From Eledone cirrhosa (lineage: Eukaryota): DNA of 64,000 nt. The notes below the pieces were generated by a model. The model was not told the origin of the DNA. It made no database searches and saw only the letters and a list, made by a program, of their open reading frames with translations. A program made the translations under genes and the position numbers. Positions 903-59,553 of this stretch are shown piece after piece (positions within the stretch are counted from its first letter, which is position 1; every line of letters begins with the position of its first letter). The stretch covers positions 264,492,001 to 264,556,000 of the forward strand of contig OZ024743.1 of the NCBI GenBank assembly GCA_964016885.1. Reading direction: 5' to 3'.

Positions 903-1715
903 AAATATATATATATATATATATATATATATATATATATATATATATATATATATATATATATATATATATATACATACATATGTATATATATATACAA
1001 TATACAAAGAATCGCTGCTTTCACCCTTAACGGGATCTTCTGAAACGGCGGTTCTTTGCTCAAACTTTAATCTATATACAATATACCTATATATATATAT
1101 AATATACATAAATAAATATATATATATGTATATGTATATATGTACATATATATATACATATATATATATATATATATAATACACACACATACACGTATAC
1201 ATATATATATATGTATATACATATATATGTGTATATATATGTATATATATGTATATATATATATGTATATATATGTATATATATATATATGTATATAAAT
1301 GTATATGTATATACATTTATATATATATATATATTTGTATATATATATTTATATATATATATATATATATTTATATGTATATAAATGTATATGTATATAC
1401 ATTTATATATATATATATATTTGTATATATATACTTATATATATATATATATATATATATGTATATAAATGTATATGTATATACATTTATATATATATAT
1501 ATATTTGTATATATATATTTATATATATATATATATATTTATATATATATTTATATATATATATTATATATATATATATATATATATATATATATATATA
1601 TATATTTATATATATTTATATATATATATATATATTTATATATATTTATATATATATATATATATATATATATATATATATATATATATATATATATATA
1701 CATATATAATATATA
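903..1715. repeat. (TA)n-rich microsatellite block
   Basis: Direct reading. It accounts for the IYIYIY ORFs. The Helitron 3' end abuts it. Confidence 0.95.
1006..1057 (-). ncRNA. Decayed hammerhead ribozyme remnant
   Basis: Minus strand AAAGAACCGCCGTTT-CAGAAGA-TCCC gttaa GGGT-GAAA-GC-AGCGATTCTTT. The core has U>A, stem III and the cleavage triplet are largely missing, and the flanks still pair. Confidence 0.4.
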
Positions 1716-2509
1716 CTAGACCACCCGTGACCCGTTGTGTCATGTTCACTTTAAAATAATTTTTAAATAATTAAAATATACTCAAAATGTATATATACGT
1801 GTATGTGTGTGTGTATATGTACGTGTATATATATATATATATATATATATATATATATATGTGTGTGTGTGTTTGTGTGTGTGGGTGTCTGTGGCCTATA
1901 TACATTGATTACAGACACACGCACAAATACATCCTGTCCTAACACAAGTTATAAGATACATATAACTTAATATTTAGTCACTAAATTCCAGCTAGATACA
2001 GTAATGCTGTATTCAATTCTTTGAAGTCACCTTTCATAATTTCATTCAACAACACCAACAGCTCTCTCCCTCTCTCTCTCTCACAGCGACTATCTGCGTT
2101 TGTATTCACATTTCAATGGTACCTTACTTTCAAAGAATTTTCTCATTATGCGCTGATTTGGTTATTTATAAAGGTACCCGAAAAAACCCGCGTATCTCGG
2201 GATCCCCTGGTCCGATTTACGCGAAACTTGTTTTTCACTGTATTATTCACAAGTATTTTCACAAAGAAAATATCAAATCATTTTTCACTAATAGCTATCC
2301 AATCACTCCACTTCAACATTCTTTTTCTATATCTCTATGGATGATTGACTGTTTGTTATGAAAGATTCTTTTGCTTAGAAAGTTGCAATGTTAATGAAAA
2401 GCAGGTTTTATTTACAAACATTTGAAAGAAATTATTCTTACTTGTCTTAGTTTTTCCTTTTCCTTTCATTTTCTGACATCGGAATCAAGAATTTTGCATA
2501 CATACGCTG

Positions 2510-5500
2510 TTACAGTTTGTTCAAAAGAATGCTTTTGATGACAACATTCTTAGTTGACTGGGTAACCTTCAGAAACTCTCTGACATTTTCTTTTCGTTTT
2601 CCGCGGCTAAGGGCTACATACAGTTGACCGTCTTGGTATACAGGTCGTTCCAGATAAACCAAGACGTTCTCCATAGTTTGTCCTTGTGCTTTATGAATAG
2701 TCAGGGCGAAGCACGATTGAACTGGGAATTGGCTTCTTTGTAAAGGGATATCCTCACCTTCGGATAGATTAATTCTTATTCTAGTTATCATAACGATCTC
2801 ATTTCTGAAAGCAGCAGTGATGATTCTTGCTACTATGTGATTGTCGTGCAGTTCTTCCACGATCATGTGCGTTCCATTACAAAGCCTTGGAGGATTCAAG
2901 TTTCTCATAAGAATTATTGGCGATCCTTTTTTTCAATTCCAAGTTATGTGGTGGCAGTCCTGATAGTTCAACAGAATCAAGGAATTCAATCAGGAAATGA
3001 GTGGCATTGGCACCTTCACTCACAGAATTATAGGATCGGTACTCTTTTATGGTTCCAGGGAAGCGTCTGATAGAGGTGGAATTGATGCTTCTCATCATTT
3101 CATTGAGAGGTACTAAGATGCAATTGTTCGAAAACACTTCAGCTGGATTGTCGAATGAGGGGTAGATGAAATCAATACATTCTTCCATAGTTGTTGCTTC
3201 GAGAACCATTTCTTTTGGCAAAATAATTTCCTCATTTTGAGTTTGTTTAATCTTATCTTCTCCAATATCTAATAGGAACTGTGAATAGTCTCCTGCTCCC
3301 ACACCCAATCGCATGTTTGTCTTCAACTGAAATATTTAGAAGCTTCGCCATAAGTAGGATTGTTTAATGCATGCGTTTTCCACGTCCGCTTCATTTCCCC
3401 TTTTCACTACCGGAATAAGCTGACGGAAATCGCCACAGCAAATTGTCAAATTTCCACCGAATGCGTCATTGTTGTCGCATATGTCACGCAGAGTGAGGTC
3501 AACAGCTTCGAAGCTTTCCCTCCGAATTATAGGACACTCATCCCAAATAATCAGCCTTGTATGCTGGTTTGCCGTCTTTGAGTTTTTATCAATGCTGCAC
3601 AGACCATTTTCTTTCACTACTATCGGTATTTTGAACCTAGAATGCGCTGTTCTTCCACCAGGCATCAGTGTTGCAACAATGCCAGATGACGCAACAGCAA
3701 TAGCCACGTCACCGTTTCCCCTAACTTTTGAAAGAATGTAGTTAATCAGGAAGGTCTTTCCTGTTCCACCTGCAGCGTCAATGAAAATCAATGCAGATGT
3801 GTTCATCTCTAAACTGTTACAAACGAAGTCATACACGTGTTTTTGTTCACTAATCAATAGAGGCTCCGTCTCTTCTACAAATCGTCGCTGCTCTTTTCTG
3901 GTGTATTGCAATTCATGCAATAACTCCAAATTGCCAATATCCTGATTGGCAACAATATTATTTGGCCTTGGCAACTTAAAGTCAATAATACTTTTGCCCA
4001 GGTCGTTAAGTTTGTCTTCAAAATACAGAAGAAATTGATCATAATGTCTCTCGCTAATCAAAAGGCTAGAGTTTCTGGGAGCCCTTTTTTCTATTTGAAA
4101 GTAATCCTCAGACAGCGAATGCTCAAATCGAATCCATAAAGCACTGGAATTGTCAATTTCCGTATTTGTGAGGAGCATGATGAATAGATCTCTCACGGCT
4201 TTGGGAAGCCTTGTTCACTCAGCATCTTCCAAAGTCTGCTGCCAATGATCATCCGATTGAAGCAAACCTTTCTCTCTGCAGACGTCTTTGAATAATGGCA
4301 GGAGTTCTCCATCACACATTTTCAAAGATTTGAAGGATACTGGCCGTTTGACGTGATGCAGAAGGACTCTTAAATAATACAGGTCACCACTTCGTGGAGA
4401 AACAGTGTATACTCGTCCCAAAACGTTCGCCTCAAAAATCCCTGGATACTGCTCAACTGTTTTCCACACCTTTCTCCTTTCCCATCTCTTATTACTCCAA
4501 GTGTAAAACTTTGGGACATCGGCATAATACAATGTTTTTGCAAACGGATCGCGATCGCCAAGATCCATGAACTCAGTCAGAGTCGTCTTAGCCATGTTAT
4601 TGTTTACTTTAACAGCAGCATTGACCCGAAAGAATATTTGATTTTCCACAGGTAGATGAACTTGAGGGCGAACTACGGCCGGTTCTCTCATGAATTGGAA
4701 ATCCAAGTACCAAGGCAACATCTTCTGAAGAACCGATATATCTTCCTGTTAAATACTGTATTATCTCATCTTCCCTGTTCACTCCAAACATTGTCTGATC
4801 ACTGCCCTTCATCGTATATTTGATAACGTATTTGATCGATTTCATGGAAGAGCACATCTCTACGTTTAGGTGGTAATTGAACCACCCATTACGAAGTTAT
4901 ATTTCGGCTTCCCCTTCCTTCTTGGTGCCCCTCAAATCCTCCCATTCCTGGGGACCGTCTTCTGTACACGGGAAAATAGTCCTTTCCACAATGTATATTC
5001 ATTGAAAGGCTTAGGCTACCGCTTACTGCACGTTCCATCTTTCCAACACGGCGAATTGTTAGAGCAATTCGGACCGTGGATCATGAGCTTCAGCACCAAT
5101 TCATGACCCTCTGGATCTTTGTTTGGATCTGGTATTTCTGATTGAACAAATTTATCATATTCCTGCGGTCTGGGCTTGGAGGCTTCATTGAGCCATAGCA
5201 AACAGTGCACATGAGGAAGACCTCGCTTTTGATATTCGACAGTCAGCACGTAAGCAATGCACTTGCCAAATAGGCCATCTACTCCAGTAAGATACTTTCT
5301 TAACAGTTTTCGCTTCAGGTCAAATACGCTGGCAATTAAATCTGGCCTGTCATGTGGCTTCTGATTCAGGAATAGGTTTTGCCGGATTTCAGGCCAGTTT
5401 GGATTACATGTCATTGTGATGAAGAACGAAGGATTGCCGTACTTCCGTATGTACATCATGGCATCCTAGCATATCTCCATCATATATCTCGGTCCACCGA

Positions 5501-59272: not shown

Positions 59273-59473
59273 TATATCTTAATAATCTCCCAATTGGTTG
59301 AGATTAATTTTGGCGATATATGGCTGCGCTTTCTAGCAGCAAGCCTACCCGCCGCAAGCAACCAATCACACGCTTTCTCTCTGGCTGGTACACAGCTACA
59401 TAGCGATCTTAGCCATTTTTGAATCTAAATTTGGCGCGGTCGGTTTGAGAAACTTAATGTCTGATTCTGAGTT

Positions 59474-59553
59474 TATCTCCTGATGAAACCTAACTCAGGA
59501 CAATTCCATATTATTTGAATGTCCTAAATAAGGAAGAAACCACGGTAGAGATA
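59474..59553 (+). ncRNA. Type I hammerhead ribozyme with extended stem II
   Basis: TATCTC-CTGATGA-aaCCT..(AGGACA/TGTCCT)..AGGaa-GAAA-CC ac GG-TA-GAGATA. Two A.A mismatches at the base of stem II. Confidence 0.8.

What the first reader, a model, noticed from the sequence alone, without database searches (positions are those of the whole stretch)
1006..59553. Very dense, highly diverse population of hammerhead-ribozyme retroelements anchored in (TA)n
Seen: 15 intact-core type I HHRs (9489+, 12861+, 16102+, 29961-, 31160-, 31322+, 35684-, 43397+, 43629-, 49747+, 51001+, 56307+, 56944+, 57308-, 59474+) plus about 8 decayed ones, i.e. about one intact core per 4 kb. Stems are almost all unrelated in sequence, implying at least 13 families. 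Only 3 intact ones are attached to PLE coding sequence; the rest sit in short non-coding units, mostly between TA tracts. Known: minimal type I HHRs occur in PLE terminal repeats and in non-LTR retrozymes of metazoans. Inference: this genome hosts a large radiation of PLE-mobilised ribozyme elements targeting (TA)n. If the window were representative this would be about 230 per Mb.
Basis: partly seen in the sequence, partly recalled or inferred. Interest (0 to 1): 0.88.

Follow-up and report, generated by a model that had tools for sequence, protein, structure and literature searches.

The report
Genome flooded with hammerhead-ribozyme retroelements
This 3-gigabase animal genome carries about 180 hammerhead-ribozyme motifs (RNA folds predicted to cut themselves) per million bases, an estimated half a million in all, in dozens of repeat families that mostly end in TA microsatellites and were likely copied there by Penelope-like jumping genes.

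Summary
A structure descriptor recovers the same 15 type I hammerhead cores; under stricter descriptors 7-9 pass, against 0-1 in shuffles. A random 1 Mb of the genome holds 179 (95% CI 125-242; shuffles 1-3), about 0.37-0.73 million genome-wide, in 45 or more clusters. The window is typical.

Eight of the 15 are 3' ends of Penelope-like elements (Hydra-type, Neptune-type, one Penelope/Poseidon-like), five of them cut off from their coding part. Six are non-coding tandem non-LTR retrozymes (324-676 bp). One is unresolved.

The retrozymes show the insertion pattern of Penelope-like elements: 98 of 106 3' ends fall at one or two internal sites per family and mostly abut (TA)n, 5' ends scatter, and inverted pieces start at the same sites. 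Those sites are often followed in the unit by a TA-like motif, which hints at target-matched priming. Copies run through the cleavage site, so the template was a circle or an uncut multimer.

Both element kinds are known; I found no report of this scale or of TA-targeted retrozymes. Cleavage and expression are untested. The scan noted a similar TA-inserted tandem unit, without a ribozyme, in another genome.

The parts
9285..9680 (+). 5'-truncated 3' end of a Hydra-type PLE, HHR core at 9493 (predicted cut after 9540), preceded by an inverted copy that has lost its core
   Evidence: 74% identical to the 43405 end; 94% to random family members; ends at TA 9681
9957..11656 (+). Broken Hydra-type PLE ORF remnant (RT, CxCx5C linker, GIY-YIG)
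   Evidence: tblastn with the 770-aa ORF of L257 and motif scan; weak Pfam GIY-YIG, E 0.002
12588..12700 (+). Decayed HHR of another family (one core base changed)
   Evidence: 86% to an intact-core copy in L236
12737..13014 (+). Retrozyme, 480-488 bp family, 0.58 unit; HHR core at 12866, predicted cut after 12942
   Evidence: 2149 first-look candidates; tandem copies; 18 of 20 3' ends at one site
15532..16309 (+). Retrozyme, 324 bp family, 1.46 units with HHR core at 16113, plus an inverted copy at 15532-15842 with a decayed core
   Evidence: 1959 candidates
25606..25795 (+). Inverted-plus-direct truncated 3' end of the L257 Hydra PLE family, holding only the 3' half of its HHR; second copy at 52955-53121
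29770..30075 (-). Truncated 3' end of a Neptune-type PLE, HHR core at 30000, with a fold-back palindrome at its 5' end
   Evidence: 84% over 70 nt to the 51004 end; a random relative has the endonuclease 282 nt upstream
31128..31403 (.). Head-to-head pair of truncated 3' ends of a Hydra-type PLE; HHR cores at 31199- (weakened stem I) and 31332+
   Evidence: endonuclease upstream in 12 of 20 loci; 585-aa RT+EN frame in L271
35637..36802 (-). Old non-coding element of about 900 bp, HHR core at 35743-, with an inverted copy whose core is decayed (36595+); class unresolved
   Evidence: 227 candidates at 71-93% identity; endonuclease upstream in 0 of 20 loci; no tandem period found
40243..43507 (+). 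Broken Hydra-type PLE: RT, CxCx5C linker, GIY-YIG with CxxC..E..CxH, long 3' UTR, HHR core at 43405, ending at TA 43508
   Evidence: stem II covariation
43540..47427 (-). Broken Penelope/Poseidon-like PLE with a minimal HHR (core at 43659)
   Evidence: DKG motif and RT; 2-bp stem I and 4-nt palindromic stem III; clade not tested by tree
49391..50082 (+). Retrozyme, 631 bp family, 1.11 units between TA tracts; HHR core at 49753 with a full 8-bp stem III, predicted cut after 49821
   Evidence: 1261 candidates, 40 scored all at 99% or more; the only one of 12 folded whose MFE is the complete three-way junction
50229..51291 (+). Neptune-type PLE remnant: inverted end, GIY-YIG fragment, 3' UTR with HHR core at 51004 (stems I and III weakened)
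   Evidence: a relative in L093 shows RT, a Cx4CxxC linker and this endonuclease
56005..56583 (+). Retrozyme, 422-446 bp family, about 1.3 units; HHR core at 56324
   Evidence: 2018 candidates; related arrays in L262 and L267
56620..57213 (+). Retrozyme, 520 bp family, 1.14 units; HHR core at 56952 (one stem III mismatch in this copy)
   Evidence: 449 candidates
57263..57430 (-). Truncated 3' end of a Hydra-type PLE, HHR core at 57358
   Evidence: 176 candidates; fixed 3' end at TA in 20 of 20 loci; endonuclease upstream in L017 and L027
59273..59841 (+). Retrozyme, 676 bp family, 0.84 unit; HHR core at 59480
   Evidence: 1380 candidates with tandem and inverted copies; 13-core relative array in L270
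62810..64000 (+). Broken Hydra-type PLE RT remnant running off the window

Best explanation
The window samples a genome-wide population of type I hammerhead motifs, about 180 per Mb, carried by truncated 3' ends of Penelope-like elements (mainly Hydra-type) and by non-coding tandem retrozymes of 324-676 bp, both likely inserted into (TA)n by Penelope-type reverse transcriptase and endonuclease. Shown: the motifs, their density, the two carrier classes, fixed internal 3' ends at (TA)n, scattered 5' ends, inverted pieces that start at the same sites, and copies that run through the ribozyme site. Inferred: the GIY-YIG endonuclease nicks (TA)n on one or both strands; the freed 3' end primes reverse transcription at a preferred internal site 74-291 nt downstream of the cleavage site, probably helped by 2-9 nt of pairing with a UA-rich motif there; synthesis continues across the ribozyme site on a re-ligated circle or an uncut tandem transcript; priming from the second strand gives the inverted piece; new copies land in TA tracts beside old ones, which yields the clusters. 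The ribozymes are predicted to cut tandem transcripts into unit-length RNA, most of them only as dimers, because 128 of 179 have a short palindromic stem III.
For: Density: 189/179/172 motifs per Mb at score 7/8/9 or more in 100 random 10-kb blocks, against 3-7/1-3/1 in three shuffles and 9/5/3 in reversed sequence; strict descriptor 90 against 2. TA tract within 200 nt downstream for 55% of 179 motifs against 15% of random points; upstream 22% against 15%. 98 of 106 retrozyme 3' ends at one or two sites per family, 81 of 106 with a TA flank, 5' ends scattered. In a second set chosen by the 3' flank only, 14 of 15 visible ends at the same base, 0 of 15 5' ends at the cleavage site, 13 of 16 loci crossing it. 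Inverted pieces in 41 of 97 loci, 32 of them starting at the same sites. TA-like runs after the 10 modal sites, combined p about 0.001. Units differ less within than between arrays in 3 of 4 arrays. Stem II of the 43405 family: 5 pairs with two-sided changes, 92% of cells paired, slid controls 36-57%. Hydra motifs (RWR, DKT, CxCx5C, CxxC..CxH) in the 770-aa and 585-aa frames, as defined in PMC8557442 section 11. Hydra-like coding sequence covers 14 kb of the random Mb, in 16 of 100 blocks.
Against: No cleavage or expression data. Only 1 of 12 folded motifs has the full junction as its MFE. The six retrozyme units share no extended sequence with the PLE ends tested, so the partner is not identified. 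Four of the 10 priming sites (16113 and 56324 families) have unremarkable TA runs (13-69% of positions do as well), and the long internal TA tracts of the 56324 unit are not its preferred ends, so pairing alone cannot set the site. In the one PLE tested in vitro, initiation is internal but at a site not homologous to the target, and ribozyme cleavage is dispensable (PMC11167929). One array is nearly as diverged within as between. The covariation set kept only the 13 of 20 flank-selected copies that passed the descriptor, plus the two window copies, and the count of pairs with two-sided changes was matched by 105 of 500 shuffles.
Confidence: 0.72

Rival explanations
1. The ribozymes are passengers. 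Uncut linear read-through transcripts of tandem loci are the templates, no circles are involved, and the cores persist only because recent master copies had them.
For: No 5' ends at the cleavage site in 15 loci. HHR mutants do not affect insertion for the anole Poseidon element in vitro. 8 of 9 Xenopus retrozyme dimers did not cleave.
Against: 45 or more clusters with unrelated stems keep the core and the pairing; compensatory stem changes; core mismatch 14 of 1342 against 468 of 17987 elsewhere in six families, though 56324 shows no difference. Circular RNAs are documented for coral, mussel and axolotl retrozymes.
Confidence: 0.3
2. All units are terminal repeats of autonomous PLEs whose coding part I did not sample; there are no independent retrozymes.
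For: True for 8 of the 15. Most random hits have neither coding sequence nor a tandem neighbour nearby, so their class is open.
Against: The six families continue head-to-tail into their own unit, with arrays of 6 or more near-identical units and 13 cores in relatives. Endonuclease sequence lies upstream in only 0-1 of 10-20 loci each, more than 1 kb away, against 12 of 20 for a true PLE end.
Confidence: 0.08
3. The TA-like motif after each fixed end is a relic of the founding insertion's target and plays no part in priming; RNA structure upstream sets the start site.
For: Short overlap (2-4 nt) in two retrozyme families and in the 31332 PLE end; non-homologous initiation in Poseidon.
Against: Four families use two separate sites, and in the 520 and 676 bp units both are followed by runs of 5-8 alternating TA bases.
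Confidence: 0.35
4. The motifs are chance matches in AT-rich repetitive DNA.
For: CUGANGA alone is only modestly enriched: 42 against 26 +/- 5 in shuffles. No Rfam hammerhead model matched in three targeted scans.
Against: About 60-fold or greater excess over shuffles. Permuted cores GUGANCA and AUGANUA show no excess (1 against 3, 2 against 6).
Confidence: 0.01

Closest known systems
Non-LTR retrozymes of metazoans (Cervera and de la Pena 2020, PMC7229834; Li, Clavereau and Pollet 2026, bioRxiv 10.64898/2026.07.22.740005)
   Same: Non-coding, low-GC (33-44%) tandem units with one type I HHR each, from partial monomers to long arrays; circular folds more stable than shuffles in all six (8 shuffles each).
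   Different: Units of 324-676 bp against 150-450 bp in the 2020 paper (within 51-972 bp in the 2026 preprint). Fixed internal 3' ends at (TA)n and inverted 5' pieces were not described in the parts I read. Estimated total 0.18-0.73 million, against up to 120,000 (axolotl), over 6,000 (coral) and about 5,000 (mussel), with different descriptors. Circular RNA not shown here.
Hydra clade of Penelope-like elements (Craig et al. 2021, PMC8557442)
   Same: C-terminal GIY-YIG, RWK-like and DKT motifs, CxCx5C linker, CxxC and CxH motifs, HHR in the 3' end, insertion into (TA)n, inverted 5'-truncated copies, optional tail (66 nt in the 31332 family).
   Different: Described from a small number of families outside cnidarians; here about 1.4% of a random Mb is Hydra-like coding sequence. 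Some 3' UTRs exceed 1 kb. One family carries a U3-A8 core in at least one copy.
Minimal and dimer-type HHRs of PLE pseudo-LTRs (Cervera and de la Pena 2014, PMC4209133)
   Same: Short palindromic helix III, an unpaired base before helix II in several families, high sequence variety within one genome.
   Different: Cleavage triplets are mostly GUA (59) and AUA (54), GUC only 14 of 179; helix II regions are long (median 31 nt).
Poseidon element of the green anole, tested in vitro (Frangieh et al. 2024, PMC11167929)
   Same: Internal initiation at one or two fixed sites; AT-rich target cut and extended on both strands.
   Different: There the start site is not homologous to the target; here it is often followed by a target-like UA motif.

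Membership tests
Type I hammerhead ribozyme | CUGANGA, GAAA and UH core in type I order with three helices | tested here: met
   15 of 15 have the core bases; 9 pass all-helix descriptors
Type I hammerhead ribozyme | Pairing kept through sequence change | tested here: met
   43405 family: 5 stem II pairs with two-sided changes, 92% of cells paired; stems I and III do not covary
Type I hammerhead ribozyme | Match to an Rfam hammerhead model | tested here: not met
   none in targeted scans at 49753, 56952 and 43659, none among the 150 of 218 matches shown for the window
Type I hammerhead ribozyme | Self-cleavage | not testable with these tools
   needs in vitro transcription
Non-LTR retrozyme | Non-coding tandem unit of a few hundred bp with one type I HHR | tested here: met
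   six families with periods 324-676 bp; not met for 35743
Non-LTR retrozyme | [quoted passage not shown] | tested here: met
   49753 (L005 and arrays), 56324 (L126), 16113 (L067), 59480 (L156), 12866 (L072, L088); 56952 reaches 1.82 units
Non-LTR retrozyme | GC below 50% and a stable self-paired circle | tested here: met
   GC 0.33-0.44; circular MFE 23-42 kcal/mol below the shuffle mean
Non-LTR retrozyme | Expressed as linear and circular unit-length RNA | not testable with these tools
   needs RNA reads or Northern blots
Non-LTR retrozyme | Target-site duplication | not testable with these tools
   cannot be discerned inside (TA)n
Hydra-clade PLE | Single ORF, RT then C-terminal GIY-YIG | tested here: met
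   770-aa frame in L257, 585-aa frame in L271, broken window copies
Hydra-clade PLE | RWK-like and DKT motifs, CxCx5C linker, CxxC and CxH, no CCHH | tested here: met
   RWR and DKT in L257; CxCx5C in L271 and in both window ORFs (one Cys changed in L257); CxxC..E..CxH in L257, L271 and window 41309-42073
Hydra-clade PLE | Insertion into (TA)n and an HHR near the end | tested here: met
Hydra-clade PLE | Placement in the Hydra clade by RT phylogeny | not tested
   no labelled reference set; best named protein hit is a bivalve hypothetical protein
Neptune-clade PLE | CX2-5CxxC linker between RT and a C-terminal endonuclease | tested here: met
   Cx4CxxC in L093, directly before an endonuclease 72% identical to window 50374-50691; phylogeny not tested
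Penelope/Poseidon-clade PLE | DKG motif, C-terminal endonuclease without zinc-finger linker, minimal HHR | tested here: inconclusive
   DKG and minimal HHR present at 43540-47427; copy is frameshifted; no tree

The most novel reading that the evidence does not exclude
This genome holds the largest natural ribozyme collection yet counted, about half a million hammerheads in dozens of families, and its retrozymes are RNA circles copied by rolling-circle reverse transcription, primed where a built-in UA-rich motif pairs with the nicked (TA)n target. That would be a target-guided priming mode unlike the non-homologous initiation shown for Poseidon, borrowed from Hydra-type proteins, and with one motif every 5-6 kb it could cut many long pre-mRNAs.
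Probability: 0.3. Interest if true: 0.85.

Novelty: new variant of a known kind. Interest (0 to 1): 0.62.

Why it matters
How animal retrozymes move, and what hammerheads do for Penelope-like elements, are open questions in the papers read. Here young families (99% identity, over a thousand candidate copies) leave single-base insertion junctions, and an uninterrupted 770-aa Hydra-type frame sits in the same genome, so partner, template (circle or linear) and priming rule can be tested directly. The motifs escape Rfam, so annotation misses them. At roughly one per 5-6 kb, any active fraction could affect long transcripts, and the families offer many natural variants with GUA and AUA cleavage sites.

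Tried and rejected
Rfam scans: only microsatellite-driven miRNA noise and no hammerhead match. RNA evidence: no RNA holder listed; four contig sets laid on the 631 bp unit showed presence and subfamilies only. An idea that the 57358 element has ribozymes on both strands was dropped: the antisense half-motif begins at the element's fixed end in 20 of 20 loci, with no core before it. 12866 as the 3' UTR of the neighbouring ORF at 9957-11656 was rejected: it is a tandem family, and only the window's own locus of 20 has an endonuclease upstream. A pile-up of 5' ends at the cleavage site, which would be in vivo evidence of cutting, was not seen in the 631 bp family (0 of 15) or the L257 family (0 of 58). 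The first end mapping used references with deletions for two families and was replaced. A descriptor for one-mismatch cores gave 1 hit against 0-2 in shuffles and was not used. U3-A8 cores: 30 hits against 2-7 in shuffles, but 11 come from one doubtful 860-bp array, so no density is claimed. The genome search for that family returned nothing, not even itself, and is uninformative. Shared sequence between retrozymes and PLE ends: only hits of 43 nt or less. I did not build an RT tree.
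Full report
1. Observation. The window is G000:C4:264492001-264556000 in a 2,996-Mb assembly. It is 36% GC and rich in (TA)n. I did not identify the organism; an octopus-like mollusc is a guess from genome size and make-up, and the best named hit for its PLE protein is a bivalve protein. Of 42 CUGANGA sites, strict type I descriptors pass 7-9, against a maximum of 1 in shuffles. 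They form 13 clusters. Four further decayed cores were confirmed by homology. Rfam does not detect these motifs.

2. Genome-wide density. I drew 100 random 10-kb blocks from 27 large contigs, limited to the parts whose length was then known, about 2.5 of 3.0 Gb. They hold 189, 179 and 172 motifs at scores of 7, 8 and 9 or more; three shuffles gave 3-7, 1-3 and 1, reversed sequence 9, 5 and 3; the strict descriptor gave 90 against 2. Block bootstrap intervals are 125-242 per Mb for score 8 and 60-127 for strict. That is about 0.37-0.73 million, or 0.18-0.38 million strict. Collapsing arrays and inverted pairs leaves 114 insertion events per Mb (87-144). The window is typical: 32% of resampled 64-kb sets reach its count. 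The distribution is patchy: 42 of 100 blocks have none and four arrays supply about 50 hits. The 194 motifs (179 random plus 15 window) fall into 45 clusters at 70% or 54 at 80%, about half of them singletons. A (TA)6+ tract lies within 200 nt downstream of 55% of motifs against 15% of random points; upstream the figures are 22% and 15%. 128 of 179 have a short palindromic stem III, and the cleavage triplets are GUA 59, AUA 54, GUU 29, GUC 14.

3. What carries the 15. Own-genome searches for nine families (176-2149 first-look candidates each, 40 scored, 10-20 loci read) and the random sample give three classes. (a) PLE 3' ends, 8 of 15. 43405 follows a Hydra-type ORF, and 9493 is a truncated relative. 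The 31199/31332 pair belongs to a family with the endonuclease about 140 nt upstream in 12 of 20 loci; the 57358 family has it in 2 of 20. 51004 and 30000 are Neptune-type by the Cx4CxxC linker of a relative. 43659 is a minimal HHR behind a Penelope/Poseidon-like ORF. The Hydra motifs listed in PMC8557442 section 11 are present in a 770-aa uninterrupted frame found in the random sample (L257) and a 585-aa frame (L271). Hydra-like coding sequence covers 14 kb of the random Mb. (b) Tandem non-coding retrozymes, 6 of 15: 12866 (480-488 bp), 16113 (324), 49753 (631), 56324 (422-446), 56952 (520) and 59480 (676). (c) 35743, an old non-coding element of about 900 bp with an inverted piece, no tandem period and no coding neighbour.

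4. Insertion anatomy. In the six retrozyme families 98 of 106 3' ends fall at one or two internal sites, 74-291 nt downstream of the predicted cleavage site; 81 of 106 abut TA repeats; 5' ends scatter (four rows duplicating a locus were dropped). These loci were chosen for holding the whole ribozyme, so I repeated the test with a query from the 3' flank only. The 30 loci collapse to 16 independent ones: 14 of 15 visible 3' ends are at the same base, none of 15 5' ends is at the cleavage site, 13 of 16 cross it, and arrays reach 6 or more units. A cut linear monomer cannot give such copies; a circle or an uncut multimer can. Units differ less within than between arrays in 3 of 4 arrays, which fits rolling-circle copying but also local duplication. 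Inverted 5' pieces occur in 41 of 97 loci of five families, and 32 begin at the same preferred sites, as expected if both cut strands prime synthesis. The unit's own sequence after the preferred site is TA-like: alternating runs of 5-8 bases at six sites and 2-4 bases at four, combined p about 0.001. That test is partly shaped by how ends were trimmed, and the 56324 unit ignores its longer internal TA tracts, so pairing is at most a helper.

5. Selection on the fold. In the 43405 family, 13 of 20 copies found by the 3' flank have an intact motif. With the two window copies, stem II shows five pairs with two-sided changes and 92% of all cells pair, against 36-57% in slid controls. Core bases mismatch in 14 of 1342 positions against 468 of 17987 elsewhere across the six retrozyme families. 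Only 49753 folds into the full junction as its MFE; 12866 does so within 0.4 kcal/mol, and most others form stems I and II with a self-complementary stem III, the dimer architecture described in PMC4209133.

6. Mechanism. Best reading (0.72): Hydra- or Neptune-type protein nicks (TA)n and reverse-transcribes from a preferred internal site, on its own RNA or on retrozyme RNA, and the ribozyme trims tandem transcripts to units. The split between circle and uncut linear template is not resolved; the passenger rival stands at 0.3. Which PLE serves which retrozyme is not shown.

7. Comparison with print. Read: bioRxiv 10.64898/2026.07.22.740005, parts 1-3 of 5 (supplements closed); PMC8557442, passages and section 11 (supplements, which list Hydra HHRs, not read); PMC7229834, passages and section 13; PMC11167929, whole main text; passages of PMC4209133, PMC7761336, PMC3088659, PMC8490949, PMC6155905 and PMC13282606. 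Known: Hydra PLEs carry HHRs and insert into (TA)n; retrozymes are tandem type I HHR units, proposed to derive from and depend on PLEs; the anole Poseidon initiates internally, extends both strands, does not need homology to the target and does not need its HHR in vitro. Published counts seen: up to 120,000 in axolotl, over 6,000 in coral, about 5,000 in mussel. A 2026 repeat annotation of Octopus vulgaris lists 31 recently active Penelope-like families and 893 unclassified SINE families and does not use the words ribozyme or retrozyme. Searches listed no paper on a hammerhead radiation of this size or on TA-targeted retrozymes; most subscription journals are not searched. From recall only, S. 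mansoni has tens of thousands of hammerheads in a genome of about 0.4 Gb, so a record per-Mb density is not established; the passages read say only 'thousands'.

8. Verdict. A real and genome-wide feature made of two known element kinds, at an unusual scale, with junction evidence that ties retrozymes to PLE-type insertion and a testable hint of target-matched priming. New variant of a known kind; interest 0.62.

Noticed in passing
L257:7506-9815 (-) and L257:6397 (-): Uninterrupted 770-aa Hydra-type PLE frame; its 3' UTR ends in the family seen at window 25606 and 52955 and carries a U3-A8 core variant, a covariation reported in PMC3088659; a second locus (L283/L284) has C3 with A8.
   Followed up: partly
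window 25606-25795 and 52955-53121: In this family 34 of 58 5' truncations fall in a 13-nt stretch of the stem II 3' arm, and 22 inverted pieces start at a second TA-like site: a strong stall or joining hot spot.
   Followed up: partly
L237, L270, L267, L262: Long retrozyme arrays: 13 cores at 556 bp period (a family absent from the window), 13 at about 650 bp, 12 at about 430 bp, and a mixed inverted cluster of 16.
   Followed up: partly
L243: 860-bp tandem array with a possible U3-A8 hammerhead-like motif in 11 units; doubtful.
   Followed up: no
window 31430-31500 (+) and 32484-32560 (-): Two copies of a short hairpin unit between TA tracts that has CUGACGA but no GAAA; not a hammerhead.
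   Followed up: no
window 2510-5465 (-): Broken Helitron with a PIF1 helicase match (E 5e-57).
   Followed up: no
window 36824-39940 (+): Broken LINE with endonuclease and RT, ending at a TA tract; further LINE fragments at 51701-52469 and 59941-61476.
   Followed up: no
window 57719-59045 (+): Tigger/pogo-like DNA transposon remnant (weak CENP-B N-terminal match).
   Followed up: no
window 8475-8657, 14017-14074, 36050-36232: Three copies of a short SINE-like repeat that also recurs in many fetched loci; in the window one copy interrupts the 35743 element.
   Followed up: no
window 16010-16030 and 56230-56250: The 324 and 441 bp retrozyme units both carry an octamer-like ATGCAAAT motif 85-100 nt upstream of similar small ribozymes; the motif label is recalled, and shared ancestry or a promoter role was not tested.
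   Followed up: no
proteins P0002-P0120: 1850 relatives of the Hydra-type protein at about 40% identity, mostly unnamed and on 2-3 kb contigs, so the clade is far larger than the families described in 2021.
   Followed up: no
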